Source of the DNA: a virus
DNA: 64,000 nucleotides
Strand: one strand, 5' to 3'
IMG/VR virus record: IMGVR_UViG_3300030107_004732
Span: 21,246 to 85,245 of that record
The position numbers were made by a program, and so were the translations under genes. The notes under the pieces were generated by a model. That model made no database searches. It had not been told where the DNA came from and worked only from the letters and a program-made list of their open reading frames with translations. This document shows positions 10,850 through 64,000 of the stretch, piece after piece (the first letter of the stretch is position 1; the number at the start of each line of letters is the position of its first letter).

Positions 10850-10993
10850 ATGGACGCTAGAACTTCATACTTTAGTAATGAAATTAAAGACTTACAGTTT
10901 AAGTTTAAATCATTGCGTAATGATCATGAAACACTTAAAAAAGAATATAAAATACTACAAAAACAAGTAAAAAAGCTCGAGGAGGGTAAATAA
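10850..10993 (+). CDS. Small coiled-coil protein
   Basis: AGGAGG RBS; heptad pattern; coupled to the JAB start. Confidence 0.6.
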   Translation: MDARTSYFSNEIKDLQFKFKSLRNDHETLKKEYKILQKQVKKLEEGK

Positions 10994-11964
10994 TGGAAAT
11001 ATTAATACATAAAGAATCTTGGGATAAGATTATAAATTATGCTAAAGCTGCTTATGTCACAGAAAAAGCTGAAATAGGTGGTATGGCTGTAGTAACACAA
11101 GATAAAGATGGTGACTGGACTATTGAAAATCCAGTTATATTACCACAAGAAATAGCAGGGACTACGTGTGACCTAGATAAAGAAGAATTGGCTACGTATT
11201 ATACTCAAATGGCTATGAAATACAAAGACCAGAAGTTTAGATTTTGTTGGTGGCACAGTCATCACACAATGAACGCATTCTGGAGTGGTACAGATTTATC
11301 TAGCATTGATGAGTATGGTGAAGGTGAATCAGACGTTTCATTTGCACTTGTTGTTAATCTAAAAGAAGAATACAAATGTAGAATATCTGTATGGAAACCA
11401 GTAGAAATACATCAAGATGTAGAAGTTAAAATATTAGATGATACACCTGAAATAGAAATACCACTTGATATAGTTACAGAAGTTAAAGCTAAATGTAGAA
11501 AACGTACTTATGTAAGTTCTTATAAATCTGGTGGATCTGTATTAGAATCGCCAAATAAAAAGCAGTTAGTAATTGGTCAAAATGGATTTGAAAGTAGTTA
11601 TAATTGGGCTAAATATAGTTGGCTTGATGATGATTTAGAAAAAATTGTTACACCACAAGAACAAACTAACTTTGAAGCTAAATGGGAATATGCGACTAAT
11701 AAAATAACAGAGTTTATTAGACAATTTAATACAGGAGCTTGGAATATGCACAAATATAAATCTGCTGTAACTCATACAAATAAAATATTAGAACCATATG
11801 GGATTCAAATAGAAACATTAAACAAGCGTGAGTTAACAGAGTTTATTGAAATGGATTCTGAACCATATGAACTGTTAACAGCTGATGATAAATATCATGA
11901 TATAGCAGAAAGTTTAATAGATTGCGCATCTTATAATCAATCTTATGGAGGGTATGGAATATGA
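10993..11964 (+). CDS. JAB/MPN+ (JAMM) metalloprotease
   Basis: N-terminal EIGG Glu plus WWHSHHTMNAFWSGTD (HxH-x7-S-x2-D). Confidence 0.9.
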   Translation: MEILIHKESWDKIINYAKAAYVTEKAEIGGMAVVTQDKDGDWTIENPVILPQEIAGTTCDLDKEELATYYTQMAMKYKDQKFRFCWWHSHHTMNAFWSGTDLSSIDEYGEGESDVSFALVVNLKEEYKCRISVWKPVEIHQDVEVKILDDTPEIEIPLDIVTEVKAKCRKRTYVSSYKSGGSVLESPNKKQLVIGQNGFESSYNWAKYSWLDDDLEKIVTPQEQTNFEAKWEYATNKITEFIRQFNTGAWNMHKYKSAVTHTNKILEPYGIQIETLNKRELTEFIEMDSEPYELLTADDKYHDIAESLIDCASYNQSYGGYGI

Positions 11965-12614
11965 TAAATACTAGAAGCCAAGATATTGCAGATATATCAG
12001 GCATTAAGTTTCACATTGTAGGTTGCGGGGCTATTGGAAGCTCCGTAGCCACACAATTAGTAAGACTTGGTGGCAATAATTTTGTTTTATATGATTTTGA
12101 TAAAGTTGAAATACCTAATGTAGGTGTAAGTCAATATAATGAACAAGATGTAGGGCTATCTAAAGTAGGTGCTCTAACAAATCATATGAAAAAAATTAAT
12201 GTAATGATTGAAATAGAGGGAATTGTTGATAAATTTAAATATTATCATGGAAATAAAGATGATATATTAGTATTAGGTTTAGATAGTATGTCTGCTCGTA
12301 TGGAAATAGTTAAATTGTTAGCAAAATGCCCTTATAAACCATCATTTGTAATAGATGGTCGTATGGGTGCAGAACAATATCAACAGTATATATATGATAA
12401 TATTACTGTTAAACAATATGAAAAAGATTGGTATTCTGATGAAGATTCTGATCCAGAACCATGCACTCGTAAAGCTACATCTTACTGTAGTAATATGAGT
12501 GGAAGTTTTATATCTAATTCTATTAAGAACATAGTTATGAAACAGCCTTACTTTAAGGAAATAATTTTCAACTTTTCAACATTAATACTTGATAAAAAGA
12601 AATTAGTTTCTTAA
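11961..12614 (+). CDS. E1-like ThiF/MoeB family adenylyltransferase
   Basis: GCGAIGS, YDFDKVEIPN, SKV, DGRMG; candidate catalytic Cys in EPCTRK. Confidence 0.92.
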   Translation: MINTRSQDIADISGIKFHIVGCGAIGSSVATQLVRLGGNNFVLYDFDKVEIPNVGVSQYNEQDVGLSKVGALTNHMKKINVMIEIEGIVDKFKYYHGNKDDILVLGLDSMSARMEIVKLLAKCPYKPSFVIDGRMGAEQYQQYIYDNITVKQYEKDWYSDEDSDPEPCTRKATSYCSNMSGSFISNSIKNIVMKQPYFKEIIFNFSTLILDKKKLVS

Positions 12615-12617
12615 ATT
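12589..12617 (+). promoter_or_regulatory. Sigma70-like promoter TTGATA-N17-TAAATT
   Basis: Upstream of ERF; equivalent element at 61278..61306. Confidence 0.6.
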
Positions 12618-12717
12618 CTAAACCCTTTATATCAAAGGGATCTTATGTATAGCACACTGAACAGGGTAGTATAACCCCTATTTCTGCCCTGTTCTCAAAA
12701 TAAAAAGGAGGAAGCTC

Positions 12718-13221
12718 GTGACAAATATCGATGTTTCAAAACAAACTGGTATTGCTAAAAGTGTATTAGAAGCAAAAGCCAAAAACGAATCAAATGAGAA
12801 ATCTTTTGATGAATCTCATGATAGAAGACATGATGAATGGAAATCACCTCAATTAGATCAATTAGCAGCAGCATTAGCTAAAGCTCAATCTGAAATGGAA
12901 GGTGCTAAAAAAGAGAGTACAAATCCATTCTTTAAGTCTAGTTATGCAGACTTACATGCAGTAATTAAATCTTCATTTCCATACTTATCTAAAAATGGAC
13001 TATCTGTTAGTCAAGGTAATGAAGTAATTAAAGGCGCTGTATGTGTAACAACAACATTAATGCACGCATCAGGTCAATGGATGAGAAGTAAAATTAAACT
13101 TCCATTAGCTAAAGTAGACGCACAAGGCGTTGGAGCTGCTGTAACTTATGGTAGAAGATATGGTTTATCTGCTATGGTAGGTATAGCTCAATACGATGAT
13201 GATGCACAATCAATTTCTTAA
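12718..13221 (+). CDS. ERF-family ssDNA annealing protein, copy A
   Basis: NPFFKSSYADL and QGVGAAVTYGRRYGLSAMVGI. Confidence 0.9.
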   Translation: MTNIDVSKQTGIAKSVLEAKAKNESNEKSFDESHDRRHDEWKSPQLDQLAAALAKAQSEMEGAKKESTNPFFKSSYADLHAVIKSSFPYLSKNGLSVSQGNEVIKGAVCVTTTLMHASGQWMRSKIKLPLAKVDAQGVGAAVTYGRRYGLSAMVGIAQYDDDAQSIS

Positions 13222-13234
13222 TTAAGGAGAACAT

Positions 13235-13771
13235 ATGAGAACAATGACAATAAAGTCAGGTAGTAGTAATAATCAATATTCTACTGGGTGGCATGAATTA
13301 ATAGTTTCAAAAGCTAAATATGGTGATTGGAATGGAACAAAATGTATAGACATTTACTTTGATGAATATCCAGAAAACTTTAACATGAGAGTTTATGCTA
13401 AAACAGGAACTGATGGTGAAGAATTTGCTATTGGTCAAATATATAGATTTGCTAATGCTGGAATAAGTAGCGCATTAGAAGGCCCTGATGGCACTAAAGT
13501 TGTTAAAATGGATGATAGTGAAGAAGCTTTAATAGGTAAAAAGATGAATGTTTACTTTTATAAAGATGGTAAATATTCTAGAATGTTATCTAAAACTGCT
13601 CCTACAGAATTTACAAATGCTGTAGAATCATTCACAACAGATGATGTTAGCTATTGGAAAGGTAAAGCTATAGATTTCTATAAGAAATATGTAGAACCTA
13701 AACTTAAAACAAGCTCAGAAGAATCCGTTTCTTCTTCCGAGACCTCCGAGAGTGACGATATACCCTTTTAA
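13235..13771 (+). CDS. Putative single-stranded DNA-binding protein, copy A
   Basis: Acidic tail ending DDIPF; follows ERF. Confidence 0.65.
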   Translation: MRTMTIKSGSSNNQYSTGWHELIVSKAKYGDWNGTKCIDIYFDEYPENFNMRVYAKTGTDGEEFAIGQIYRFANAGISSALEGPDGTKVVKMDDSEEALIGKKMNVYFYKDGKYSRMLSKTAPTEFTNAVESFTTDDVSYWKGKAIDFYKKYVEPKLKTSSEESVSSSETSESDDIPF

Positions 13772-13791
13772 GTGAGTAGGTAATCGTTAAT

Positions 13792-13875
13792 TATAGGGAG
13801 GCAACAACTGGTCCTGTAAGTCGTAAATGACCTACTGAGGAAATTTCCGCAAAGGAATATGTGAGTCTCCCTATA
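13792..13875 (+). ncRNA. Conserved structured RNA element, copy A
   Basis: 11-bp closing stem; cores AACAACTGGTCCTGTAAGTC and GCAAAGGAATATGTGA conserved at 62519..62600. Confidence 0.7.
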
Positions 13876-14319
13876 TAAAGATTTGGTAACAGTATAAAAA
13901 CTCCCTAGATAGTACTCAGTTTACTATCTGACATTTCAGAAATCTAAATTCCATTAGATTCCGATTATTTGTTTATGAGTATATTTCATACGTGACTATT
14001 GCCTGGCTGGAAGTTGCAGGAGTTACCAAAAAATTAAAGGAGAATTATGAGAGCGACAGAATTTATGCATTTTATGAATAGAACAGATATAGGTTTAGGA
14101 CAAAATCCTAAAGAAAGAGACTATACACACTATACCCCTAGAATGCTTGCAAAAAGAGCTAGATATGAGTATCAAAAGATGCTTAGAGAACAAAAAAAAT
14201 TAAAGAAATCGGAGGAAAAAAAATGATAGAAATAATACTTATAAGTTTATCAATATTTATATTAGCTGTAGGAACTTTAATACTGTTAATAAAAAGTGAA
14301 GTGGAGAATATACATGGAG

Positions 14320-16077
14320 ATGATTAAAGAAATAGCATTTGGAGTTAGTAATAGAGGTAATTTTCAATCTAAAGATGAAGTTTGTGAGTTACAAGGCACT
14401 GACACTGATCTATTTGTGTCTTTATATGACTATGATGAAACAGTTGTAGCATATTATAGTAAAAAAGGAAGTTTATCAGGATTTGATGGTAACATATATA
14501 TGCCTACAGAATTTATATTAGACGTTGATGGATCTAGTATAAGAAATGCTAGAGATAAATTAATAGGTTTATCAGATATATTAGATGATTGCAATCTATA
14601 CTATAGAATATATTTTAGCGGAACAGGTTTTCATGTTGGTATACACAATTCAGCATTTAAATGGGAACCAAGTCCTAATTTACACGTAAGAGTAAAAGAA
14701 GAGCTAACTAAAGCTGGTATCTATAAATTTGCAGACCCCTCTGTTACTGATAAAACAAGAATAATAAGACTAGTTAATACTAAAAATACTAAATCTGGAT
14801 TATATAAAATCTGTATAGAAGATAACTTACAAATATTATCTTCGTCAGATAAAGTGTTTAAAGAAGAGCTGATTAAATTAGCATCAGAACCTAGAAACAT
14901 AGATTACGAAGATATTGAATTGAGTAGCCCAGTATTTGATGTAAGAGATAAAGAAAAACCTGAAGAAAAACCTGAAATTAAGGTAAGAAATAAGCGTGAT
15001 CCTGTTGCTAACACTTGTATACAGAAAATGTTAGATGGTGCTCCACACGGTAAACGTCATATGGTCGCTCTTAGAATAGCATCTCATTTAAGATGGAACT
15101 TTCCAGAAAATATTGTAAGATTAATTATGGAAGATTGGCGCATTAGAGTTAACGAAGGTGCTAAAAGCGAGTTTAAAAAAGAAGAGATGGATGGTATAGT
15201 AGAAGGTTGTTATACTGGTCATGATGGACAAGGTTACAGATATGGTGCTGATGATCCAGTTATACAGTTTTATTGTAACTCTAAATGTACGTTACACAGA
15301 GGTGCTAAAGCCGAAAACATGATGGATTCAAGTAGTATGGAAGATGAATTAATAAACTTTTATGCTCAAGACTTAAAACCACTTAATTTAGGTGAGCCAT
15401 ATGATATGAATTTCCCTATATATCCAGGTGAAACAGTCATTATTCAAGCTCCACCTGCAAGTATGAAGACTATGTTGCTTCAAAATTGGGTAAATTATTT
15501 TAAAAGACCAACATACTTTGTTGAAATGGAAATGTCTCCAAGGCAAATATGGTCTAGATTTGTTCAGATAGAAATGGGGTGGGATGAAAATCAATTAGCT
15601 AATCATTACAAACAAATGAAAAATGGTATGGATAAAAGATTTGAATGGTTAACTGTAGACTATTCAGCTCCATATGCGCATGAATTAGAAAGAAGAATCA
15701 CCAGCCTACCTGTTAAGCCAGAAATAGTAATTGTTGACCATTTGGGGCTATTTAAGAGCAAACAGAAAGATAATAACATGAAAGTTGAGGAAGCTAGCCA
15801 AGCAATTATGGAATTAGCTGTAAGACAAAATGTGATCGTCTTTGCTGTAAGCGAAGTATCTAAAGCTGCCTTTAAAGAAGGTATGGACATATCTTCATCT
15901 AGAGGTTCATTTAGAATTGCATATAATGCAAATAAATTAATATCTTTAAAGCCATATAAGAACAAAGAAACAGGTCTTGTTGAGCTTATAGATATTAAAT
16001 CAGATAAAAACAGAGAGAAAGAACATCTGTACGCTAGATTAACAGTTAATAACGTAAGAATAGAAAAGGAGGGCTAA
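14320..16077 (+). CDS. Primase-helicase (AEP primase-polymerase plus RecA/DnaB-like domain), copy A
   Basis: ILDVD, FSGTGFH, TDKTRIIR; CIQKML..G.RH region; variant P-loop APPASMKT; IVDHL Walker B. Confidence 0.85.
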   Translation: MIKEIAFGVSNRGNFQSKDEVCELQGTDTDLFVSLYDYDETVVAYYSKKGSLSGFDGNIYMPTEFILDVDGSSIRNARDKLIGLSDILDDCNLYYRIYFSGTGFHVGIHNSAFKWEPSPNLHVRVKEELTKAGIYKFADPSVTDKTRIIRLVNTKNTKSGLYKICIEDNLQILSSSDKVFKEELIKLASEPRNIDYEDIELSSPVFDVRDKEKPEEKPEIKVRNKRDPVANTCIQKMLDGAPHGKRHMVALRIASHLRWNFPENIVRLIMEDWRIRVNEGAKSEFKKEEMDGIVEGCYTGHDGQGYRYGADDPVIQFYCNSKCTLHRGAKAENMMDSSSMEDELINFYAQDLKPLNLGEPYDMNFPIYPGETVIIQAPPASMKTMLLQNWVNYFKRPTYFVEMEMSPRQIWSRFVQIEMGWDENQLANHYKQMKNGMDKRFEWLTVDYSAPYAHELERRITSLPVKPEIVIVDHLGLFKSKQKDNNMKVEEASQAIMELAVRQNVIVFAVSEVSKAAFKEGMDISSSRGSFRIAYNANKLISLKPYKNKETGLVELIDIKSDKNREKEHLYARLTVNNVRIEKEG

Positions 16078-16224
16078 ATGCCTAAGAAAAGTAAAGAAAA
16101 ACTAAAATGGGAACATGCTGAAAAATTAGCTAACCTATATGAGCAAAGATCTAATTTGGAAGTAGCTTTTATAAAATTAAACGGAGCTATTGAAGTATTG
16201 GAATCAATAAAACCTAAGGAGTAA
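16078..16224 (+). CDS. Small hypothetical protein (48 aa; not in ORF track)
   Basis: GGAGG RBS; IKLNGAIE resembles IKVEGAIE in 61338..61520. Confidence 0.6.
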   Translation: MPKKSKEKLKWEHAEKLANLYEQRSNLEVAFIKLNGAIEVLESIKPKE

Positions 16225-16226
16225 TT

Positions 16227-16511
16227 ATGTATTACAACACTAATGATGAAACAGGGGGAACTCTGCAAAATAGTAGGAATGCTGCAATAAAACAAGAGGA
16301 TCAAATTCTTGGTATATTTCGAGCATTTCCAAATGAAGGTCTTACACCATTTGATATTGAAGATTTTGCAAATGATCAAGATGTTCATTGGCCTATAACA
16401 AGCATTAGAAGAGCTATTACAGATTTAACTAATGCTGGTAAATTAACTAAAACCGATATAACTAAACTAGGTAAGTACGGAAAGAAAGTACATACTTGGA
16501 AATTAGTATAA
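16227..16511 (+). CDS. Winged-HTH DNA-binding protein
   Basis: GLTPFDIE...ITSIRRAITDLTNAGKL. Confidence 0.65.
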   Translation: MYYNTNDETGGTLQNSRNAAIKQEDQILGIFRAFPNEGLTPFDIEDFANDQDVHWPITSIRRAITDLTNAGKLTKTDITKLGKYGKKVHTWKLV

Positions 16512-16527
16512 CACTCAGGAGGGAAGC

Positions 16528-16722
16528 ATGTCAAAAAATAAAAAACCTACAATGAATGAAGTAAGAGATGCAATAGCTGTAATGATTAGAAGAATTGATG
16601 ATTTATATAAAGTTATGCATCAAAGTAATTTAACCTTTACTGAATATTTAATGTTCAAAAAAGAAGGAGATAAATTTACTGAACATTTAAAGGAAAAATA
16701 CGATAAAAAGGAGGATGAATAA
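16528..16722 (+). CDS. Hypothetical protein
   Basis: 64 aa with GGAGG RBS. Confidence 0.6.
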   Translation: MSKNKKPTMNEVRDAIAVMIRRIDDLYKVMHQSNLTFTEYLMFKKEGDKFTEHLKEKYDKKEDE

Positions 16723-16934
16723 TGAGTTGGTTTTGTGATACTCAAGAAGCAAAAGATCATAAGAAAAATTGCAAGAAAAATCCTTGGAATTGTGGCAAAT
16801 GTGTTTGGATAGATGAATCAGCTATCGCTATGGGAAGATATGGTAAAGTTGTAGAATCTGAACCAGAAGCAGAAGAACTTCATCCTTTATTTGAACAGAT
16901 AATGGAGACTTTTAATGGCAGAAAAATTGACTAA
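16722..16934 (+). CDS. Small Cys/His-rich protein, copy A
   Basis: N-terminal 44 aa nearly identical to 59545..59760. Confidence 0.8.
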   Translation: MSWFCDTQEAKDHKKNCKKNPWNCGKCVWIDESAIAMGRYGKVVESEPEAEELHPLFEQIMETFNGRKID

Positions 16935-17150
16935 AAAACAATTAAAAGCAATTAAAAAACATAGGAAAGATAATCCTAAAGAAACAAGTCATGCTCGTAG
17001 AGCTAGATTATTAAAAAATAAACCTTGGTGGATGCCTCGTGACTAATTGCAATAAATGTAAATCAAAGTGCTTCCCTGTGTATAGTTTATCTATAGTTAA
17101 CGAAATATACGTATGCAGGGATTGCGCTTTTAAAATAATGGAAGGATATT

Positions 17151-17891: not shown

Positions 17892-20579
17892 CTAAAAGTC
17901 TTGTAGAGAAGAAAGTATTTGCAAGAGTTCCTCTTCTGAGTACTTCTTCTCTGCCTTTGATTTCTTAGTTTCTTTAGGGGTAAAATATGTAGATACAGGT
18001 TCTGGCATATATTTCTGAAGAGGCATTAATAAAGCATCTTTATAACCTGAAAGTTCAGGAGTGCCATATAAACCTAATTCTTGTCCTAATAATGTAGGTA
18101 CACCAGTACCATTTATAGATCTAGGTACAGTTGAGTAAATAAGTCTTCCAATCTGAGTATTTAAAGTTCTTACTATTTCTTCAGTAGAGTCAGTATTGTG
18201 TCTTTCATGGAATTTGATATAACCATTTGAATAAGTTGTCCATTCAGGTCCACCCATTTTCATAAAATTAGTAGCAGTTCCTATTCTTATTATATCACTT
18301 ACAAAAGGACCACCAAATGTTCCAGTAATAGGATCTAATCCAAAAAAGGCTTTCTTTTTAGCTTCTTCATCGCCAGTTAAATATTCTCTTAACCTAATAC
18401 CTCTTTCTAAAGTATCGTTTTGTACTAAATTATTAAAATTAGTATTTGTTAAAGCAGATAACCCTGTTATAAAAGTATATAACATACCCAATCTATATAA
18501 TCTCCAAGCTTCAGGACTGTTCCATTCTTTAGCAAGTATATCATTACCACCTTTTTTAGCTATCTTAGCTTGATAGTTAAAGAAATTAATAGCATAAGTT
18601 GAAAACTGACCTAAAACAGAACCTACAGGGCTTTTTGTTATATTTGGTTTAGCAAACCTATCATATTGATAGTGAAGCTCTTTAACCATTGCTGCTCCAT
18701 AATTAGAAGCTTTTTTTATAATTTGCCTTTCTACTTCAGGAGTAATATCCATTTCTGAATCTTTAGATTTTTTTAAGGTCTTTCTTAATAATTCTTGATT
18801 ACTTTTTAAATCTCTATATTTAGTCATAAATGCAATCTTAAATGTTAAACCCCTATTTATTTTATTTTCAACCCACTGCATAGGTTTACCAGTTATCCTT
18901 GCAGTATTTTCCATCCAATCATTTATTTTACTAGCAGCAGTTGGACCTTTTTCTATAACTCTACCTTCTGGAGTAACTTCTAAATGTGCCATCAAATCTC
19001 TAGGCATAGCAAGTTCTTGTATATTAACAAATTCGAAACCATGTCTTTTCATTTCATTGTCAACAATAGTTTTCATAGATTCTGATTGCAAATCTTTCAT
19101 AGCTGTATATATACCTTTATGACCAAAATATACCCAATTTTGTAAAGACTGGGTAGCATTTCTGGCAGCAGATCTTATATTTAATCCTAATTTAGACATA
19201 AATTGAAATGATGTAATAGCTTGAGAAAAATGAGCAAGTTTACTATCTCTAAATTTTGTGCCTAAAACAGCCTCATGTGTATCACCTATATAGCCTGCTA
19301 AGAACTGTAAATGTTGATCATAATCTTTTCCTTCTAATCTTCCCAACTCTTTTAAAGCATTAGTAGTTTCTTTTGTAACTCTTGCATTATAATTAAATCT
19401 TATAACATTATTTGAAAATGTATCAAGAAGACCTATAACATCTTTATTTTGAAAGTCAAACCTTCCAGATTTCTTTTCAAACGATAAACTAGGCATATTT
19501 AAATTGTCAGCTATATTTTTTATCATAGTACCCATATATCCGCTAACATCTTTATAATTTGTATTTACTTTACCAGAAAACATATCTTGACTAAATTTAG
19601 CAAATGTAGGAGCTATATCTAATACTTGTGTTGGAAAATAATCTTTAGGTTTTTTAGGAGGGGGAATTTCTTTACCATTTTTCTTTGTATAACGAAAATA
19701 ATCATTATATAAATTTTCTAATCTTTTTACCTCAAAACCTACACCATTAAACTCATTTTTATGAGATTCTAAAACTTTTATATAATCTAATATACCATTA
19801 CCTAATACTTTCCATAGTCTATCTTTTAATGGTGCTATATTTTGAGCAGGTTTACCATTATGCCAAAGATTAACAGCTTCTACTACTTCAGGTCCATATT
19901 TTAATTTTGCTGCATCTAAATCCTGTTTTTTAAACTTACTAGGATCTAGCATCAAATCATATAAAGCATTATTAATAGCCATTTGAGATTCAGGATCTAC
20001 ATTTTCAAGCCACTTTTTAGCATAAGCGTCAGCCTCTTCAACTTTGCCATCTTTCATTAACTTTTCATGAGTAATTTGGTGTTTTTTTAACTCTTCTTGA
20101 ACTTTATTTCTACCATAACCATACTTTCTCATAAACCCTGTATCACCCATAGCTCTGTTTAAAGAGTTTTTTATAATAGCTAAATCACTACCTATAGTTT
20201 GTAAATTACCATGATAGTAATTACTAGCTTGAACTAAATTATTAAAGTATTTCTTAGTAATGGGGTTTTTAGATAAAACATTTTCAGGAAGATTAAACAG
20301 TTTACCTAAAGTTGTAGGCTTTTTTTCTAATCCATTTAAAAACTTTGTTACATGCTTATCTAACTTATTTAACTCTTTAGCGTTTGGAAGTCTACTAAAC
20401 TCAAAATCTAAATTAGGAAGTATTTCGTTAAATACTCTTTCAAATTCATTAGATCTACCACCAGTCATAGCTTTTATAATTTTATTATCCATCCATTTAT
20501 CAACAATACCATTTAATCTATTAGCTCTATCTTGTTCACTAGCTTTGACATTTAAAGGATTTAAACATTTAACAGCCAT
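17892..20579 (-). CDS. Large internal virion/ejection protein
   Basis: ~895 aa helical protein at the end of the virion arm; start MAVKC after GGAGG. Confidence 0.6.
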   Translation of the reverse strand: MAVKCLNPLNVKASEQDRANRLNGIVDKWMDNKIIKAMTGGRSNEFERVFNEILPNLDFEFSRLPNAKELNKLDKHVTKFLNGLEKKPTTLGKLFNLPENVLSKNPITKKYFNNLVQASNYYHGNLQTIGSDLAIIKNSLNRAMGDTGFMRKYGYGRNKVQEELKKHQITHEKLMKDGKVEEADAYAKKWLENVDPESQMAINNALYDLMLDPSKFKKQDLDAAKLKYGPEVVEAVNLWHNGKPAQNIAPLKDRLWKVLGNGILDYIKVLESHKNEFNGVGFEVKRLENLYNDYFRYTKKNGKEIPPPKKPKDYFPTQVLDIAPTFAKFSQDMFSGKVNTNYKDVSGYMGTMIKNIADNLNMPSLSFEKKSGRFDFQNKDVIGLLDTFSNNVIRFNYNARVTKETTNALKELGRLEGKDYDQHLQFLAGYIGDTHEAVLGTKFRDSKLAHFSQAITSFQFMSKLGLNIRSAARNATQSLQNWVYFGHKGIYTAMKDLQSESMKTIVDNEMKRHGFEFVNIQELAMPRDLMAHLEVTPEGRVIEKGPTAASKINDWMENTARITGKPMQWVENKINRGLTFKIAFMTKYRDLKSNQELLRKTLKKSKDSEMDITPEVERQIIKKASNYGAAMVKELHYQYDRFAKPNITKSPVGSVLGQFSTYAINFFNYQAKIAKKGGNDILAKEWNSPEAWRLYRLGMLYTFITGLSALTNTNFNNLVQNDTLERGIRLREYLTGDEEAKKKAFFGLDPITGTFGGPFVSDIIRIGTATNFMKMGGPEWTTYSNGYIKFHERHNTDSTEEIVRTLNTQIGRLIYSTVPRSINGTGVPTLLGQELGLYGTPELSGYKDALLMPLQKYMPEPVSTYFTPKETKKSKAEKKYSEEELLQILSSLQDF

Positions 20580-23500
20580 CGACTCTTCCTCCAACTTTAC
20601 TATTTGTTATATTTTTTAATCTTTCAGCTCCGCCTGCAGGTGGATCTACAGGTAAATTTTCATATGGTGCTCTTTGAGGAACTTTTCTTGGTCCTCCATA
20701 AGTTAAATTTTGTTTAGAAGCATCACCAAGCATAATTTGATAACCATTTTCTACTGCTTTTAAATAGCTTTGACCACCATTAATAGCTCCATATTTAGTA
20801 GCACCAACAAACTCAGGTATATAACCAACAGGCATATAGTGTAAGAAACTAGCTTTAGCCATTTCAGAAGCAAAACTTGGTAATAAAGGTTGAGAAGACA
20901 TATAATAAGCTACATTTTTATTAGCATTTTCAAATCCAAATAAAGAAGAAACTCCAGGATTTATATGTCTTTGTTGAAAACTAGGCGACCAACTTTCAAA
21001 ACTAAACTGAGCAATATCATCAACTAAAGGAAACCCTCTAAATATATCATGTTTTGCATTTGCAGCATTTGTCATAGTATTATGAACTATTGTACCTCTT
21101 TCACCAGGTAATCCATAAACTGCTCTTAATGAGTTGTTTACATGCCCTGAAAGATGTGTAAATATCATGTCTTTTTGAAATTCTGTAATTAATTTAGAAT
21201 CAGCGCTAGATATAAAGTTTAACCCTAATCTAATCATAGATAAGCTTTCTTTCTTAAAAGAAGGAGTTAAACGATCATGTAAATATGTAAATTTAAAAGG
21301 CTCTACTTCTGGAGACATAAGTTTCCATAATAATAGCTGCCCATATCCACCCTCAGATTGATATTTAGTATATAATCTTTCTAATCTATCCATAATAACA
21401 GTATTAGAACGAGTATTATCCATATACCATTCTTGCCCATTAAAGTTCTTTTTCCAAGTTTCTCTATAAAACTTTTTAAAATCTTTTACATCTTTCTCAA
21501 ATTGCTTAGAAAGTTCTTTATTTGTAATATTTTCATTTATAAATATTTTGTTATATCTATCAAAAGCATTAAACCATATAAGTCTTTCTATTTGATCTAC
21601 AGAACTAACACCTTCAACACGAACAACGTTATTTTTTGAAATGTATTTATTTAAAGCATTATCGTTTCTTTTAGCCCAAGAACTTACTGTTGCATAATCA
21701 AAAGAGTCAGGTAAAGGACCTTCAGCCCAACCTTTAGGAGCTTTTCTGTCTTTAATCATATCATCAATCAGTTTTCTTTTTGAAGCTTCTCTTATACCTT
21801 TAGCCCAAGGAACAGATTGTCCAGAACCTGATAAAACCATTTGCTTTTCTATTTCTCTTTTTTGATTTTTAAGTTGAAAAATATCCTCAGTTAAATACTC
21901 TATATATTGTTTATCACCTTTACCATAAGCATTAAATCTAGCTTTTTGTTGACTTCTTATTCTATAGTCTAAATAGTTAACGTAATTAAGATATTTGTTA
22001 TTTTGATTTAATTCTTTCATAAACTCTGAAGCTACTGTACTAAAATCTTCAGAATACATACCTTTTTCACTAAACTTTTTAAATTCAGTAAGCATTTCCC
22101 CGCCAATTCTACCAGGGTTTTGAAGTCTCATATTATCATGATAACTAACAACAGACATAGCTCTTTCAAATGGAAGTTGATTATCCATCCACTGAGTTGT
22201 TGCTTTGTTATCTCTAGCAAAATTTGGCCTTATAGAATTGCCATAATTACCAAATATATTAACAATATTATTTTGGTTATCTCTGAACATTCTATTTACT
22301 TCACCCTTATCTTGCTTACTTAGGCCCTTTGTTTTCATTGCTTTCCAATATGCATACTGAGAAAGATTAGCCATTTGATTATCAAAAGTAGTAGTTTGGG
22401 TTATTATATCATCATAACTTATTTTTTCTCTTTTACCACTAGAAAATTTACCAGTTGCTAATCCTAATAAATGTTGATAAGGAGCTATAACTGCTTTAAT
22501 AACTGCTTTTTCTGCATTAGTAAATGTATGACCTGTATCTTCTGGTAACCATTTATTTTTAAATTTACCAGAATCATTATAAATTGCTTTACTAAATATA
22601 CCGCTATAACCATGCTCACTATCTCCAAACAAAACTCTATCAAACCACATATCATTGTATTTTTCAGCATTATAACCTTGTCTAGAATCAGTAATGTTTT
22701 GTATATCTGTAGCTAATTTATCTATAGTCTTTTCAATTTTAACAGGATCAACATATAACTTTCCACCACCATCAGCATTCCTTAATCTCATAGCGAAACC
22801 AGCAAAATCTGATTTTGTTTCTGGATTAAAAACACCACCAGAATTATAATGTTTTAAAGCATTTAATATCCTAGGAGTTTTAACTATTACCCCTCTTAAT
22901 CTTTGAGCAGCATAATCACTAGCATAAAACTTATTCATAGAAGAAGCGTCTAAGAATGACAGATTTTTAGGTAGACTTGTTTTTTGGTTTACTCCATCAG
23001 GATTAACTCTTATAACTCTACCAGATAAAGCATTCCATTCTCTTACAACTTCAGTAGGAGCATTCCACCAAAAATCTAATTTATCAACATCAAAATCACC
23101 TTCATGTCTCATAGCAAAATCATAAGCATTTAATTTGACTTGATTACCGTAATCTTCAGTAAGTATTTTTTTAACACCTATAGCACTTACATCACCTGGT
23201 CTTGTATGTGGGTTTCTTCTAAAGTTTGCCATAACTTGATAATTTTTATTACCTTCTATCTTTTTTACAACATCAGATAATTTGTCGCCTTTAACAATAG
23301 ATTCATTACCTGTTTCTTTTATAAATTGCTTTAAATCTATAAGATCATCTTGACCTTTTGGATTTCTTTTTATAAAATGTAAATTTCCTAAATCAACTTC
23401 TTTTTGTCCAGCTCTATATGGTAGTTCAGCTTCACCATAAGTATTTACTTCTCTACTTCCATTATCCATTTCTCTAAAAGTAGTATAAAGTAATTTTTCA

Positions 23501-26500
23501 CCTGGACTAACAACTGATTGACCACCTAATTCAGTTTTCATACTTAGTATACCAGGTTTATCAATAAGATTAGATTTTAATTGATTTCTAAATTGATTAG
23601 CAAATGTTGATATTTGAGGTAATCCATTATTTTTAATCCATCTATTATAAGAAGAAGCATTATCTTGGACTTTCATATTTTCCATTAAATACTTACTATA
23701 AGCCAATCCATCAACTAAATTGTTAGAATCAAACTTTTTGTCAGACTCTTTAATTAAATTCTCTAAACTTCCCCTTAAAAGCCAATTAAACGCCTTATTT
23801 GATGCAGATCCACTTAAATGGTTTAATGCAGAATGAGATATTGTGGCGCTGTGGTCAGCGTTTACTATAGAGCCAATAGAAATATCTTCACCTTTAAGCA
23901 ACTCTAAATGAGCTTCTCTAAAATCTTTTATTTTTTTACTACTACCTTTTAAATTAAGGTTGATTAAATCATCAAAAGTTTCCCAATCTTCAAATATTTT
24001 TTCTCTATTTTTTATTTTTGTTGCGCTTTCAAACATTACAGCATCAAGACCATTCTTTTTTAACATAGGATTTAATCTAGGGTCTGCTATAAATGCTGTT
24101 TTACCTATAATAACATTATTTCCAACTCTATGTACAATAGGTTTTATTCCGCCTAAACCAGGAGTATTTGCTGCTCCTGCTAAAGCGTAAAGACCTTGCA
24201 TAGCTTCTGTACTAACCGCCATATAAGAATCATATTTACTTACTTCTCCGCCACCTGCCCAAGTTCTTCCACCTTCACCAAATTCATTAACAATTTTACT
24301 ATCATATTTAAGTTCTGAATCAATTTGCTCTTTTAATTCTTGAAGTATATTAGCGCTTCTACCTTTTTTTAATTCTCCATTTTTAAACATTTCGTCAGCA
24401 ACAACAATAATTTCTAGCCCACCATTCTTTTTGATTCTTTCTAAACCTTTCATCATTTCAGGGTTTTGTTTTTTACTTATATTGTGGTTGTTATAAAACT
24501 CAAATGTTTCTTTTATATAATCAGTAGACATTTCTTTCATAGCAGTATTAGCTAAAAGTCTTAATCTACCAGCATATTTAGCCGTGGCTTCTGCTCCCTC
24601 TGTTTTCATATGTTCCCAAAAATTCTTACCCATATTTTTGTCCATAAACATAAATGTAAACATAGTTTGTAATCTTTCAGACTGAATTGTAGCATCAGGT
24701 AAATCCCATTCATATTCAAATTTACCAGTTCCCTCATTTTTTTCATTTAAGATTTCTTTTTTAGATTTAGTAGACGATTTTAATAGCCCCTCTAAAGATT
24801 CAAAAACACTATTAGGTACATCAGGATTATCTTTTTTCCATTTTTCTAACTTTTTCTCAAACTTTTCAAGAATCTTAGGAATATTTTCTCTTTTAACACC
24901 TATTCCCCAAGAAAGATCAGCAAGTCTAATCATAATATGACCGCCTGTATTTTCATGAGCGAGAACACCCCATTCATCTGTTCTAAGATTTTTGTCTATA
25001 CTAGTTTTAGATAAGGCAACACGATTAATGATTTCGTTCATCATATTAGCATTATCACGAGCATTTATAAGTTTGTTATTTTTTCCCGCAACAACCATAT
25101 CAACTATAGAGAAAGAATCTTTTCCAAAAATATCTATTATTTCTCTAAATACATGGTTATCCATAACTGTATGTCTAAAATCAGTATGGACACCGTATCC
25201 TTCTGATACAGATAATCTATGAACATTTATTTGGCTTCTTGAACCTAAAATTAATTGTTGAACATCATTCATCAACTCAAATTGTTGGTTGCTATCCATA
25301 TCTTCAAACTTTAATTCTTTATTATTTTTATCATAAAGTATAGCATCATTTATAAGCTGTTCTCTAGTAGTGTTTTTTGTAAACTCATAATCTTTTTCCA
25401 AGCCATATTTTTGTTTAAATGCATCTCTTGTCACAGATTGATACATGTCAATATCAGAAGCTTTACCCATAGCGCTTCTATAATAATTTACTTGAGATTC
25501 TAAATTAGCAATTTCTACGCCTTGTGCTATATCAAATTTTGCCTTATCATAAATTTCTTGCATATCTTTTTTAAGATTTTTATTCAAAGGATCAAGAGCC
25601 AATTCATCTTTAACTATATCATAATAACCTTTTTTTCTTAAAGCTTCTATAATTTCATTAGAATTAACTGATTTATTTCCATACATCTGATATATATAGT
25701 GTATCATTTCTCTTGTTTCTGAGTCAAATTTAGAATTGTTTTTTATAGCCCCTAATTGCTTTAAGAAATTATCATGAAGCATATTATTCATATCTTTTCT
25801 GACAGCTGTTAATTGACTTATCATTTCATGCAATTGAGAAGGTGTAACAGAAGCTACAGTAGATGTAGTTTTTATAAAACCTGTCTGTTTCCCATCTTTC
25901 ATTTGAACTAAATAGGGACTAATTAAATCTTTGTAATTTCTAAATAACTCAGCAGCTAAAAATTGTTTTTCAATACCCAATTCAACAGATAGTTGTTCAA
26001 ATAGTTTATCCATAGTTGGCTCTTTATCAAAGATAGTATCTATTACTACTCTCCAGCCCTTACCCATTTTATTTTTACTATTTAAATCTAATTTTTTTAA
26101 GTCTATATTATTTACTTTAGATGACATTTGATTTATAACGCCAATTAATTCAACCATATCCATATTAGGAGTTAACATTTTAAAATCCAAAAGCTTAGAT
26201 AAAACTTTTCTATCAGTAGAGTTTAATATACTTCCATCTCTTTTTGTTGCTCCTTTAAAGAATTGATCCATAGCTCTTTCTTGATAAATAGCTTTGAACA
26301 TATTAGATTCTGTCATATCTCCAGTGCTAAACATAGTTTCCATACCATTGTTTCTAAACACTCTTCTTAACTCTTTAATATCTCTTATTTGTTCTTGAGT
26401 AAATTTAACTTTAGAACCTGTATTATCTAATATTCTTTGTTCATAATTAGGATCTGTTCTTAATATAGATAATAAACTATTTACAAATCTTGCTTCTGCC

Positions 26501-61980: not shown

Positions 61981-62502
61981 ATGCCTATAACAATAAAAGA
62001 AAGCTCTAACAAATCTTATGCAGAAGGATGGCATAATGTAACTGTAAGAGAGGCAAAAGTAGGAGACTTTAATGGGTCTAAATATATAGACTTATGGTTT
62101 GTAGATTACCCAGACAACTTAAAATGTCGTATTTGGGAAGCTCGTAATAAAGATGGAGAAGAATTTTCTGTATCAAATATGATAAGATACTCTAATCCTG
62201 ATATTTTAGAGCATTCTGAAGGAGCTGATGGTGCTGTTACAGCTCAAGTTGATGATTCAGCATCTTCTATAAAGGGTAAGCAGTTTCAAGCCTATTTCTA
62301 CAAAAAAGCAAATGGTTATACTGAAATATCTCAGAAATTAGCACCTGCTACACCATTTAAGAATATTGTAGAATCATATGATGAAGAAAGAATACATCGT
62401 ATAAAAACTTCAGCAGAGGAATATACTAAGCGTAGGAATACGACAGTCCCTACTTCTCTAAACGAAGAGACAAGTAGCTCAGAGGAGGAAGTCCCTTTCT
62501 AA
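61981..62502 (+). CDS. Putative SSB, copy B
   Basis: Ends EEVPF; GWH and GEEF motifs shared with 13235..13771. Confidence 0.65.
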   Translation: MPITIKESSNKSYAEGWHNVTVREAKVGDFNGSKYIDLWFVDYPDNLKCRIWEARNKDGEEFSVSNMIRYSNPDILEHSEGADGAVTAQVDDSASSIKGKQFQAYFYKKANGYTEISQKLAPATPFKNIVESYDEERIHRIKTSAEEYTKRRNTTVPTSLNEETSSSEEEVPF

Positions 62503-62518
62503 GGACTACCTAACTAAT

Positions 62519-62600
62519 AAAGAGAGCCAATAACTGGTCCTGTAAGTCCAAACTGATTCGTAGATGATGCCTTGGCGAAGGAATATGTGAGGCTCTCTTT
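62519..62600 (+). ncRNA. Conserved structured RNA element, copy B
   Basis: Closing stem AAAGAGAGCC/GGCTCTCTTT; same cores as 13792..13875. Confidence 0.7.
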
Positions 62601-62623: not shown

Positions 62624-64000
62624 ATGATGATAAGAGAATTTGCGTTTGGTCTATCCAATAGACACCACTTTTTCGATACGCGAGAGTCAGTAAAATGGGA
62701 AAATGTTGCTAAAGACACTTTTATGTCTCTCTATGGTTATGATGATAATGTTGTTAAATATTATGAAGAAAAGAAAACTTTATCAGGTTATGATGGAGTT
62801 ATTTATATGCCTAAAGAGTTTCTTCTTGATGTTGATGGTCCTGACACCAAAGATGCTCAAGAAAAAACTATTGAATTACTTAAAATACTAAAAGATTTAA
62901 AAGTTCCATATAATTTATATTTTAGTGGCAGAGGATTTCATATTGGAATACCTGATTCAGCATTTAAATGGAAACCACATGCAAACTTACATATCAAAGT
63001 AAAAAAAGTATTAGATAACTTTGGTATATATAAGTATGCGGATGTTTCTGTTACTGATAAGACAAGAATAATAAGGTTAAACAATACATTAAACTCTAAA
63101 TCAAGATTATGGAAAATACATATTACAGAGTATGAATTAGAAAACACATATTATCTTGAATTGCAAGAATTGGCTAAAAAACCTAGAGTTTCTAAAATTC
63201 CTGAATTAACCTGTGAACCTGTATTTGATGTAATGATAAAAGAGAAAGTTAAAAAAGAGAATAAACCAACTGTTTCTTTAAAACCTACATTAGGTAAAGA
63301 ACCAGACCCTATGCTATATCCTTGTATTCAAACAATGTTGAGTGGTTCAGAATATGGTAACAGACATGCATTAGCATTAAGAATAGCAGCTTGGCTAAGA
63401 TGGAGATACCCAGAACATGTAGTTCAATTAATAATGGAAGACTGGAGAAAAAGAGTTACTACAGTAGAGCATCCATTTAAAGAAGACGAGATGAAACGAT
63501 TAGTTAATGATTGCTATACAGGTCATGGCGGCAATGGTTATAGATATGGATGTATGGATAAAATAATGGATAAGTATTGTAATTCTACTTGCACATTATT
63601 TAAAGCTAAAAAGTCTCAAGGTCTTATGAGTGCTGAAGATATGGAAGATAATCTTATTAGTTGGTTAAAAGGTGATGTAAAACCAATTAATATAGGAGAA
63701 TTATATGGCAAAAACTTTCCTATATATCCTGGTGAACTAGTTGTTGTGCAAGCACCACCTAAATCTATGAAAACTATGTTGATACAGAATTGGGTAAATG
63801 AACTAAAAAGACCTACTTATTTCTTAGAAATGGAAATGTCACCAAGACAAATATGGTCTAGATTTATTCAAATAGAACAAAGATGGAATGAAGATGAGAT
63901 GAGAGCTCATTATCAAGATGGTAGCCAAAGTTTAACAAGTAAATTTAAATGGTTAAATGTCGATTATCAACCTTGTTTTGGTGTAGAGCTTGAAAAAAGA
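62624..64000 (+). CDS. Primase-helicase, copy B (3'-truncated by window edge; not in ORF track)
   Basis: Manual translation MMIREFAFGLSNR...LLDVDG...FSGRGFH...APPKSMKT...EMEMSPRQIWSRF. Confidence 0.9.
   Translation, partial: MMIREFAFGLSNRHHFFDTRESVKWENVAKDTFMSLYGYDDNVVKYYEEKKTLSGYDGVIYMPKEFLLDVDGPDTKDAQEKTIELLKILKDLKVPYNLYFSGRGFHIGIPDSAFKWKPHANLHIKVKKVLDNFGIYKYADVSVTDKTRIIRLNNTLNSKSRLWKIHITEYELENTYYLELQELAKKPRVSKIPELTCEPVFDVMIKEKVKKENKPTVSLKPTLGKEPDPMLYPCIQTMLSGSEYGNRHALALRIAAWLRWRYPEHVVQLIMEDWRKRVTTVEHPFKEDEMKRLVNDCYTGHGGNGYRYGCMDKIMDKYCNSTCTLFKAKKSQGLMSAEDMEDNLISWLKGDVKPINIGELYGKNFPIYPGELVVVQAPPKSMKTMLIQNWVNELKRPTYFLEMEMSPRQIWSRFIQIEQRWNEDEMRAHYQDGSQSLTSKFKWLNVDYQPCFGVELEKR

What the first reader, a model, noticed from the sequence alone, without database searches (positions are those of the whole stretch)
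13792..13875. Recurrent structured RNA motif with covarying stems (AAYAACUG / UAUGUGA loop)
Between SSB and primase in both arms, different closing stems (TATAGGGAGGC/GTCTCCCTATA vs AAAGAGAGCC/GGCTCTCTTT at 62519-62600) enclose near-invariant cores AAYAACTGGTCCTGTAAGTC and GCRAAGGAATATGTGA around a variable middle. Compensatory stem changes with conserved loops are the signature of a functional RNA. I cannot assign it to a named family; it could be a riboswitch, ribozyme or protein-binding site.
Basis: seen in the sequence. Interest (0 to 1): 0.72.

Follow-up and report, generated by a model that had tools for sequence, protein, structure and literature searches.

The report
Conserved folded RNA in marine phages
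Both copies belong to a widespread family of folded RNA elements, found in no RNA catalogue searched, that sits between replication genes of uncultured ocean phages; its core is almost invariant, its closing stem covaries and its function is unknown.

Summary
The window has two copies, at 13792-13875 and 62519-62600 on the + strand. Each lies between an SSB-like gene and a primase-helicase gene.

Their architecture:
- P1: an 11-bp closing stem with compensatory changes at 10 of 11 pairs.
- An almost invariant internal loop, AAYAACUGG opposite AUAUGUGA.
- P2: an invariant 4-bp helix, UCCU/AGGA.
- Usually a junction, RUAAGUC...GCAA.
- Zero to three hypervariable hairpins, with an insert of 4-147 nt in all.

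In P1, G.U pairs outnumber A.C 70 to 9, so the gene-sense strand folds. Insert lengths show no codon periodicity.

The element matches no Rfam 15 family, no cultured phage in INPHARED, and only one of 185,579 species genomes. Complete 52-56 kb phage records carry one or two copies.

The function is not shown. I favour an intercistronic processing or stability module read by a trans-acting factor (0.35). Rivals are a new self-cleaving ribozyme, a riboswitch or operator, an excised small RNA, and a DNA-level site.

This scan met the same family before on other DNA (e1-3421417). It may also be one of the 8,495 unnamed candidates of Fremin et al. 2023; their supplement was closed.

The parts
13792..13802 (+). 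Copy 1, P1 5' strand (TATAGGGAGGC), purine-rich
   Evidence: Pairs with 13865-13875. P1 covaries across the family.
13803..13811 (+). Copy 1, 5' side of the invariant internal loop (AACAACTGG)
   Evidence: In the 76 distinct rows not anchored on this side, each of these positions is 70-75 of 74-75 identical; the exception is the Y position, T 59 / C 16.
13812..13815 (+). Copy 1, P2 5' strand (TCCT)
   Evidence: Pairs with AGGA at 13853-13856. Two contigs cap P2 directly with a short loop (L192, L203). There is one UA-to-AU compensation and two CG-to-UG changes.
13816..13822 (+). Copy 1, junction motif GTAAGTC; the final C closes P3
   Evidence: 132 of 138 distinct elements carry at least one TAAG[ACT]C motif in the insert. 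C-G closing pair: 63 of 64.
13823..13848 (+). Copy 1, hypervariable insert (P3 'cargo')
   Evidence: The same insert occurs in L105 with a different P1, GAGAGCC.
13849..13852 (+). Copy 1, 3' side of the junction (GCAA); the G pairs with C13822
13853..13856 (+). Copy 1, P2 3' strand (AGGA)
13857..13864 (+). Copy 1, 3' side of the invariant internal loop (ATATGTGA)
   Evidence: Identical in all 64 sequences that were anchored on the 5' core only.
13865..13875 (+). Copy 1, P1 3' strand (GTCTCCCTATA), pyrimidine-rich
62519..62528 (+). Copy 2, P1 5' strand (AAAGAGAGCC)
   Evidence: Pairs with 62591-62600.
62529..62548 (+). Copy 2, 5' core: internal loop AATAACTGG, P2 strand TCCT (62538-62541), junction GTAAGTC
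62549..62574 (+). Copy 2, hypervariable insert
   Evidence: The same insert occurs in L085 with a different P1, and as the second hairpin of a two-hairpin element in L145.
62575..62590 (+). Copy 2, 3' core: GCGA, P2 strand AGGA (62579-62582), internal loop ATATGTGA
62591..62600 (+). Copy 2, P1 3' strand (GGCTCTCTTT)
13235..13771 (+). Upstream neighbour of copy 1: SSB-like protein, 178 aa, with an acidic ...DDIPF tail
   Evidence: No Pfam, PHROG or PDB sequence hit. A protein-atlas lead points to DUF669 in 15% of one cluster. This family is the upstream neighbour in 32 of 97 contexts.
61981..62502 (+). Upstream neighbour of copy 2: SSB-like protein, 173 aa
   Evidence: 39% identical to the arm-1 protein.
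14296..16077 (+). Primase-helicase of arm 1; the likely start is the Met at 14320
   Evidence: Pfam DnaB_C, 1.6e-09. PHROG primase and DnaB-like helicase hits for a family member. Alignment with arm 2 begins at residue 9.
62624..64000 (+). Primase-helicase of arm 2; it runs off the record

Best explanation
The two sites are members of one family of structured RNA domains. They are carried on the sense strand of the polycistronic early/replication transcript of uncultured marine phages. A stable, covarying 9-11 bp stem (P1) closes the domain just after the upstream stop codon and just before the next ribosome-binding site. Inside P1 lie an almost invariant internal loop (AAYAACUGG opposite AUAUGUGA) and a 4-bp helix (UCCU/AGGA). 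Beyond those comes a junction (RUAAGUC...GCAA) that carries 0-3 interchangeable hairpins. Shown here: the fold, its strand, the invariance of the core, its intercistronic position and its low copy number. Inferred: the domain works in cis as an intercistronic processing or stability ('punctuation') module. In this reading the invariant core is the recognition site of a trans-acting factor, a ribonuclease or an RNA-binding protein of phage or host. Cutting at or beside the domain, or the stable domain left at a 3' end, would then uncouple the fate of the upstream message (most often the SSB-like gene) from that of the downstream message (often the primase-helicase).
For: Real fold on the sense strand:
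- 10 of 11 P1 pairs show double changes; 97.6% of cells pair against 84.0% in shuffles, with 0 of 500 shuffles reaching it. A second set repeats this.
- In P1 of 138 distinct elements, G.U outnumbers A.C 70 to 9.
- Insert lengths fall 49/42/47 by remainder on division by 3, and 110 of 138 elements have stops in all three forward frames.

Sequence-specific core:
- The 5' loop and P2 are 70-75 of 74-75 identical in rows that were not anchored on them.
- The 3' loop is identical in 64 of 64 rows anchored only on the 5' core.
- The flanking proteins of the two window copies are only 39% and 51% identical.

Intercistronic and co-oriented:
- A same-strand ORF ends within 25 nt upstream in 79 of 94 contexts.
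- A same-strand ORF starts within 45 nt downstream in 61 of 91 contexts.
- An SD-like motif plus start codon follows within 45 nt in 67 of 97 contexts.

Tied more to the upstream gene than the downstream one:
- The SSB-like family is the upstream neighbour in 32 of 97 contexts. The largest downstream family, the primase-helicase, accounts for 10.
- In arm 1, extra DNA and a 59-aa ORF lie after the element, not before it.

The same slot holds other stable structures in relatives. Six of the 12 SSB-related loci lack the element. They carry plain hairpins (L196, L199, L200, L201) or a different structured RNA (L197, L198) right after the SSB stop.

tRNA genes, which are themselves processing signals, abut the element with 0-6 nt of spacing in 3 of 60 loci scanned.

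P1 is long and stable: the 53-nt minimal form folds at -22.2 kcal/mol. That suits a constitutive structure better than a switching helix.

Copy number is one or two per complete 52-56 kb record.
Against: - No RNA end, cleavage product or bound factor was seen. The two marine RNA libraries that hold parts of the region are kept only as contigs, which cannot show ends, and contig breaks at the element are expected from k-mers shared between phages.
- Known processing sites such as the T7 RNase III signals (recalled, not checked here) need no core of about 25 invariant bases and occur about ten times per genome. This element occurs once or twice.
- No candidate protein partner was found. The SSB-like neighbour is present in only a third of contexts.
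- The invariance fits a catalytic or ligand-binding core at least as well.
- Minimal forms that lack the junction exist in only 2 contigs and may be decayed copies, so the minimal functional unit is uncertain.
Confidence: 0.35

Rival explanations
1. It is a new class of small self-cleaving ribozyme. The invariant loop, P2 and junction form the catalytic core, P1 and the distal hairpins are the usual variable scaffolding, and cleavage separates the flanking cistrons.
For: The conservation pattern is that of small ribozymes: invariant unpaired bases, covarying helices, and optional peripheral stems of variable length. Gene contexts are varied, with 45 clusters among 146 flanking proteins. The element is phage-restricted: 1 of 185,579 species genomes. 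It is small, with a 53-nt minimal form.
Against: No known ribozyme family matches, even at E<=10. No known ribozyme lies nearby in 148 kb of 11 related loci. The predicted fold is an almost continuous rod, with no evident second domain or pseudoknot to build an active site. No permuted forms were seen. No cleavage evidence could be obtained.
Confidence: 0.18
2. It is a riboswitch or protein-operated translational operator for the downstream gene. The invariant loop binds a small molecule or a protein. The SD-like purine-rich 5' strand of P1, the anti-SD-like pyrimidine-rich 3' strand, and the true SD just downstream form a three-part switch.
For: The core is aptamer-like. The inner 7 bases of the P1 5' strand are 72% purine and those of the 3' strand 28%. 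An SD-like motif begins a median of 8 nt after P1, in 67 of 97 contexts. In copy 2 the P1 3' strand CUCUUUU can pair with AAAAGGAG at the primase ribosome-binding site (my reading).
Against: Downstream genes are diverse and mostly of unknown function; the strongest association is with the upstream gene. P1 has 9-11 bp and is very stable, unlike a switching P1. No terminator or other expression platform is evident: a run of 5 or more T in 13 of 97 contexts, and no terminator-like site at either window copy. Any pyrimidine tract can pair with an SD, so the three-part arrangement is not specific evidence. In arm 1 about 170 nt separate the element from the next ORF.
Confidence: 0.17
3. It is a stable small RNA excised from the transcript that acts in trans, built like a Y RNA: a terminal stem formed by both ends, a conserved protein-binding bulge, and a variable module. 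It would serve as a scaffold, decoy or sponge.
For: The terminal stem is formed by the two ends, with a conserved internal loop and a swappable distal module. tRNA genes abut P1 flush, so tRNA processing would set an end of the element. Seventeen of the 24 insert families with two or more members occur with two or more different P1 types.
Against: No Y RNA or YrlA match in Rfam. No TROVE/Ro60 gene in 5 of 5 phage records searched, although the control genomes gave hits. The 3' strand lacks the Ro-binding complement (recalled motif; my reading). No promoter-like or terminator-like site of its own. Inserts are only weakly structured, with a mean z of -0.98.
Confidence: 0.12
4. The signal is at the DNA level. 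Either it is a replication origin or primase-helicase loading site that folds as single-stranded DNA, or it is a conserved recombination linker that lets phages swap modules.
For: It sits in the replication module beside ERF, SSB-like and primase-helicase genes, with one or two copies per genome. In L136 two elements lie about 2 kb apart. Inserts are exchanged between different P1 backgrounds, as expected for crossovers in the identical cores. PeSL cassettes of T4-type phages mediate such shuffling (abstract of PMC2839356).
Against: Compensatory changes with a 70 to 9 excess of G.U over A.C point to a folded single strand of fixed polarity, always the mRNA-sense strand. Many contexts lie outside the replication genes, including next to tRNA genes. 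No iterons or promoter-like sites were seen. A linker for recombination needs neither a covarying stem nor an invariant asymmetric loop.
Confidence: 0.08

Closest known systems
Intercistronic RNase III processing signals of phage T7 (R0.3, R0.5, R1.1 and others; recalled from textbook knowledge, no paper read here)
   Same: Both are irregular hairpins of roughly two helical turns, with an internal loop, lying between co-transcribed phage genes. Such a signal can leave a protective hairpin on the upstream message.
   Different: T7 has about ten sites per genome and little invariant sequence. This element occurs once or twice per genome, has about 25 near-invariant bases and carries swappable distal hairpins. 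No cleavage was shown.
Small self-cleaving ribozymes found in phage and metagenome DNA (hammerhead, twister, twister-sister, pistol, hatchet, hairpin)
   Same: Conservation pattern (invariant loops, covarying stems, optional stems), size, varied gene contexts and restriction to phages.
   Different: No Rfam model of any of them matches, even at E<=10. No evident tertiary partner or pseudoknot. Cleavage untested.
Single-internal-loop riboswitches such as THF-II (folE motif) (recalled)
   Same: The 53-nt minimal form is a hairpin whose conserved bases lie in one internal loop between two helices.
   Different: No consistent downstream gene class, a very stable P1, and no expression platform.
PeSL (promoter-early stem-loop) cassettes of T4-type phages (Arbiol et al. 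2010, PMC2839356; abstract read)
   Same: Both are conserved intergenic cassettes in phage genomes at which modular exchange takes place. Here the hairpin inserts are exchanged between backgrounds.
   Different: By that abstract, PeSLs combine a strong sigma-70-like promoter with a terminator stem-loop and are numerous. Here no promoter-like or terminator-like site lies at the element, copy number is 1-2, and there is an invariant internal loop.
Y RNAs / YrlA bound by Ro60 (Rsr)
   Same: A terminal stem made by both ends, a conserved internal loop or bulge, and a variable distal module. The 5' strand shares CUGGUCC with the 5' end of vertebrate Y RNAs (recalled).
   Different: No Rfam Y_RNA or YrlA hit. 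The opposite strand does not provide the Ro-binding helix (recalled). No TROVE gene in 5 of 5 phage records.

Membership tests
Any Rfam 15 family (4227 models) | Match to a curated covariance model at its gathering score | tested here: not met
   0 matches over the 64-kb window. 0 at E<=10 around copy 1. Around copy 2 only six sub-threshold hits of 12.6-17.7 bits, against cut-offs of 37-80. 0 in 148 kb of 11 related loci.
Self-cleaving ribozyme (generic) | Site-specific self-scission of the transcript | not testable with these tools
   Only contigs of RNA libraries were available, and these cannot show ends.
Self-cleaving ribozyme (generic) | Invariant unpaired core framed by covarying helices with optional peripheral stems | tested here: met
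Riboswitch | Consistent association with downstream genes of one pathway | tested here: not met
   146 flanking proteins fall into 45 clusters. The largest downstream cluster (primase-helicase) has 10 members, and most others have no PHROG function.
Riboswitch | Expression platform (terminator or SD-sequestering helix) that competes with the aptamer's P1 | tested here: inconclusive
   No terminator-like site at either copy. A T-run in 13 of 97 contexts. The pyrimidine-rich P1 3' strand could pair with the SD that follows a median of 8 nt later, but this is not specific, and P1 is 9-11 bp and stable.
Riboswitch | Binding of a small-molecule ligand | not testable with these tools
   Needs in-line probing or an equivalent assay.
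T7-type RNase III processing signal | Irregular double-stranded hairpin of about 20 bp or more between cistrons | tested here: met
   P1 (11 bp) + AYA/UGU + loop + P2 (4 bp). Intercistronic position.
T7-type RNase III processing signal | Many sites per genome, at most gene boundaries of an operon | tested here: not met
   One strong hit in 4 complete records and two in one. Two in the 85-kb record, which holds about one and a half genome units.
T7-type RNase III processing signal | Cleavage by RNase III | not testable with these tools
   No end-resolved RNA data.
Y RNA / YrlA | Ro60-binding helix and a Ro60 (TROVE) partner | tested here: not met
   No Rfam Y_RNA or YrlA hit. TROVE absent from 5 of 5 phage records, while the control found it in 2 of 14 known genomes. 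The host genome is unknown.
PeSL cassette | Strong sigma-70-like promoter joined to a terminator stem-loop | tested here: not met
   No promoter-like or terminator-like site at either element. Definition taken from the abstract of PMC2839356.
Intrinsic terminator | Compact GC-rich hairpin followed by a U-run | tested here: not met
   60-200 nt lie between the P1 strands. A run of 5 or more T in 13 of 97 contexts. None at the window copies.
Dispersed intergenic repeats (REP, ERIC, Correia) | Many copies per genome with conserved termini | tested here: not met
   1-2 copies per genome. The termini (P1) vary with compensation while the interior is invariant.
Protein-coding micro-gene | Open frame and length variation in multiples of three | tested here: not met
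   Insert lengths fall 49/42/47 by remainder on division by 3. 110 of 138 elements have stops in all forward frames.

The most novel reading that the evidence does not exclude
The invariant loop, P2 and junction form the active site of a previously unknown class of small self-cleaving ribozyme, or the pocket of a phage-specific aptamer. Marine phages would use it to cut or gate their replication-module transcript. The distal hairpin slots would then be a natural plug-in scaffold.
Probability: 0.25. Interest if true: 0.88.

Novelty: new member of a known kind. Interest (0 to 1): 0.62.

Why it matters
About 25 near-invariant bases are held between genes whose proteins have drifted to 39-51% identity. 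Conservation that strong is what has led to new ribozyme and riboswitch classes in the past. It is absent from Rfam 15 and from cultured phages, and it is small enough (53-100 nt) to test at the bench in days.

Whatever its mechanism, it marks a control point at the SSB / primase-helicase boundary of a large group of uncultured marine phages. Its slots, which accept 0-3 unrelated hairpins without disturbing the core, are a natural example of a modular RNA scaffold. If it proves to be only a processing or stability hairpin, it is still a useful annotation feature for these genomes.

Tried and rejected
Known families. Rfam at gathering score and at E<=10 gave nothing usable.

Cultured phages. 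blastn of either copy against INPHARED found nothing at E<=0.01. At E<=10 it gave only four 23-nt chance hits to the variable middle, and none to the cores. The primase has only one distant relative there, a Moorella phage at 24% identity.

Host. I do not take this as a host assignment, because a viral contig can be binned by mistake and the phage genes carry strong SD-like sites.

Literature. A full-text search for the core as RNA or DNA letters returned only unrelated primer hits. A keyword search on new ribozyme classes returned nothing on this motif. Fremin et al. 2023 (PMC10690425; passages read) list 8,495 unnamed candidates from IMG/VR intergenic regions. Their supplement was closed, so I cannot say whether this motif is among them.

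RNA evidence. Runs X3 and X4, from marine RNA libraries, hold parts of 11000-17000, but only as contigs. Their pieces stop at 13773, 13822 and 13860, which are different places, and shared k-mers between phages explain breaks there. I draw no verdict on transcript ends or even on transcription.

Hairpin ribozyme, K-turn, loop E, 11-nt tetraloop receptor, SRP domain IV, bulge-helix-bulge. I compared each by eye with motifs recalled from memory. None fitted on both strands. These are not tests.

Start-stop micro-ORF (AAGGA..AUGUGA). Rejected, because the SD-to-AUG spacing is about 2 nt.

T7-like promoter reading of TATAGGGAGG. Rejected, because there are only 1-2 copies per genome and the outer P1 pairs covary.

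The giant 2992-aa protein as a lineage marker. It was found in only 1 of 5 other records carrying the element, so the element is not tied to it, or the search is too insensitive.

Weak model hits in the window. The hits at 56655-56706 (19.4 bits) and 35637-35737 (19.1 bits) look like a ribosome-binding site plus start codon, and chance.

Inserts. They are only weakly structured (mean z -0.98 over 83; 14% below -2). I did not test them for antisense targets.

Full report
**The observation**

The window carries two copies of the described motif on the + strand, at 13792-13875 and 62519-62600. The 20-nt 5' core and the 16-nt 3' core occur only at these two sites, even with mismatches allowed. None of 100 dinucleotide-preserving shuffles gave two matches for either core. 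The closing stems differ between the copies and both pair. Both + strand folds keep the stem: -28.8 kcal/mol (z -3.54) and -24.5 kcal/mol (z -2.38).

Each copy lies after an ORF of 178 or 173 aa that ends in an acidic ...DDIPF / ...EEVPF tail, which I call SSB-like. This protein has no Pfam, PHROG or PDB sequence hit, and there is only a protein-atlas lead to DUF669. Each copy lies before a primase-helicase ORF (DnaB_C in Pfam; primase and DnaB-like PHROGs in a family member). An ERF-family gene precedes each SSB-like gene. The paired proteins of the two arms are 39% and 51% identical. The RNA cores differ at 2 of 36 positions.

**The record**

The window is bases 21246-85245 of an 85,245-bp IMG/VR virus record. 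ORF strands show an early or replication block on the + strand (about 3.9-17.9 kb), a long block on the - strand (17.9-54.8 kb), then a second + block from 55.5 kb that runs off the end. The second block repeats the gene order of the first in diverged form. One element per unit agrees with what complete relatives show, described below.

**The family**

Ninety-nine elements in them also had the 3' core, 84 of them distinct. A scan for a 16-mer of the 3' core also stopped at its limit. Among 140 distinct hits, 81 had the canonical 5' 16-mer. Most of the rest were true elements with point variants or an extra hairpin, and a few were chance hits in coding sequence (L132, L156, L166).

With a relaxed pattern I count 138 distinct full elements in the loci held.

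Outside IMG/VR the element is rare:
- No cultured phage in INPHARED matches the cores.
- A gapped pattern found only one of 185,579 species genomes, a Flavobacteriales MAG contig.
- The runs that hold the region are marine metagenomes.

**Structure**

An alignment of 64 members (A1) supports an 11-bp P1.
- Ten of 11 pairs change on both sides.
- 97.6% of cells pair, against 84.0% in shuffles (0 of 500 reach it) and 23-56% with slid partners.
- RNAalifold finds the same P1, a 4-bp P2 (UCCU/AGGA) and the first pairs of a distal P3, of which one covaries (CG 58, GC 4, UA 2).
- A second alignment of 84 model hits (76 distinct; partly overlapping A1 and fitted to the model) gives 97.1% paired against 82.3%. 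In P2 it shows one UA-to-AU compensation and two CG-to-UG changes.

Two contigs cap P2 directly with a short loop (L192 and L203). This independently supports P2 and defines a 53-nt minimal form that folds at -22.2 kcal/mol, z -5.16.

The single variable base of the 5' loop (Y) faces a G and is C or U, which is compatible with an AYA/UGU mini-helix. The second G of CUGG is A in 3 of 74 rows, which is compatible with pairing to a U.

**What is invariant**

In the 76 distinct rows that were not selected on the 5' side, every base of A-AYA-ACUGG-UCCU is identical in 70-75 of 74-75 rows, apart from Y. In the 64 rows selected only on the 5' side, AGGAAUAUGUGA is identical in all. P1 positions, by contrast, vary freely with compensation.

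The junction RUAAGUC...GCAA is less strict, with G/A and U/C/A variants. At least one junction motif is present in 132 of 138 elements, two in 13, and three in one.

Beyond it the insert runs from 4 to 147 nt, with a median of 49. It forms 93 sequence clusters, of which 69 are singletons. Seventeen of the 24 clusters with two or more members occur with two or more different P1 types. The same hairpin can sit in the first or the second slot (L008 against L125, L136, L143). The inserts are closed by a few pairs but are otherwise only weakly structured (mean z -0.98).

A rarer variant carries a 20-nt insertion between AUAUGU and GA (L014, L046, L081, L091).

**RNA on the sense strand, and non-coding**

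- In P1 of the 138 elements there are 1368 Watson-Crick cells, 70 G.U, 9 A.C and 71 other. The opposite strand would therefore pair worse.
- Insert lengths fall 49/42/47 by remainder on division by 3, and 110 of 138 elements have stops in all forward frames.
- The element is co-oriented with its neighbours. A same-strand ORF ends within 25 nt upstream in 79 of 94 contexts. One starts within 45 nt downstream in 61 of 91. Reverse-strand ORFs of 40 aa or more abut it in only 10 of 89 and 7 of 87.

**Context and copy number**

- Among 97 distinct contexts, the SSB-like family is the upstream neighbour in 32. The primase-helicase family is upstream in 13 and downstream in 10. The remaining 91 close flanking proteins fall into 43 further clusters, mostly without PHROG function.
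- The model finds one strong hit in four complete 52-56 kb records and two in a fifth. It finds two in the window's own record.
- Of 12 loci fetched through the SSB-like protein, the six closest (77-91% identity) carry the element right after the stop. The six more distant ones (47-58%) carry plain hairpins or an unrelated structured RNA at the same place instead. Rfam has no match for these either.
- In 3 of 60 loci scanned, a tRNA gene abuts P1 with 0-6 nt between them, on either side.
- No sigma-70-like promoter or intrinsic-terminator-like site lies at either window copy. A run of five or more T follows P1 in 13 of 97 contexts.

**How it most likely works**

Shown here: a folded, sense-strand RNA domain with a sequence-specific core, placed exactly between cistrons, at low copy number.

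Inferred: it is a processing or stability module read by a trans-acting factor. I favour this at 0.35 for four reasons.
- The element follows the upstream gene more faithfully than the downstream one.
- Relatives keep some stable structure in the same slot.
- tRNA genes, which are natural processing signals, sit flush against it.
- P1 is too long and stable for a switching helix.

The invariance argues for a specific partner or for catalysis, so a new self-cleaving ribozyme stays a serious rival (0.18). A riboswitch or operator is less likely (0.17), because downstream genes are diverse and no expression platform is evident. It is not excluded, because the purine-rich and pyrimidine-rich strands of P1 plus the nearby SD could form a three-part switch. 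The excised trans-acting small RNA (0.12) and the DNA-level readings (0.08) have the least support. No Ro60 gene was found in 5 of 5 records, and the G.U excess fixes the folding strand.

The RNA libraries available were contigs only and decide nothing.

**Comparison with what is known, and novelty**

The element works most like an intercistronic processing hairpin of the T7 type, or like a small ribozyme. It fails the membership tests of every named family I could test: Rfam families, Y RNA, PeSL, intrinsic terminator and dispersed repeats.

I file it as a new family within the known kind 'conserved structured RNA motif of phage intergenic regions'. Three caveats apply.
- This scan already met the family on another genome and reached a similar description (e1-3421417). 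I re-derived that description here from the data.
- A 2023 survey predicted 8,495 unnamed candidates from IMG/VR intergenic regions (PMC10690425; passages read).
- My searches of the held literature, by core sequence and by keywords, found no description of it.

Noticed in passing
window 13877-14046: The spacer of about 168 nt after copy 1 is an indel module. A DNA contig of run X1 joins 13877 to 14046 with 11 other letters between. The same block, which contains a hairpin, follows elements in L016, L038, L076, L089, L103, L115 and L192.
   Followed up: partly
L197:3031-3160 and L198:2434-2570 (approximate): A second, unrelated structured RNA with its own purine-rich/pyrimidine-rich stems occupies the slot after the SSB-like gene. 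It has no Rfam hit at E<=1, and its exact 17-mer occurs only in these two IMG/VR contigs.
   Followed up: partly
L134:9951-10125, L175:774-948, L163:5280-5454: tRNA-Met directly precedes P1 in L134 and L175, and tRNA-Cys directly follows it in L163, with 0-6 nt between tRNA and element.
   Followed up: partly
L014, L046, L081, L091 (elements found): A variant of the element with a conserved 20-nt insertion between AUAUGU and GA of the 3' loop. Part of the insertion could pair with CCUGU of the 5' core or with the insert.
   Followed up: no
L142:6528-6624; L162:2234-2288: Divergent or decayed second copies on contigs that also hold a canonical element. L142 keeps P1, P2 and the junction, but both sides of its loop are changed. 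L162 keeps only P1 and the loop ends.
   Followed up: no
window 1-64000 (record 85,245 bp): The record holds about one and a half genome units. The early/replication block at 3.9-17.9 kb recurs in diverged form from 55.5 kb (SSB-like 39%, primase 51% identity). This looks like a chimeric or head-to-tail join of two related phages.
   Followed up: partly
window 10993-12614: Adjacent genes with JAB/MPN (weak, below the Pfam cut-off) and ThiF/E1 (4.7e-19) domains lie just upstream of the ERF gene.
   Followed up: no
window 20569-29547 (- strand): A 2992-aa ORF. A homologue split into three ORFs, at 75-76% identity, is present in only 1 of 5 other phage records that carry the element.
   Followed up: partly
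L109 and L142 inserts: One insert family contains AGGGAAUGGUGCAAAUCC, which resembles the conserved start of cobalamin riboswitches (recalled). The insert is far too short to be a full aptamer, so this is probably chance.
   Followed up: no
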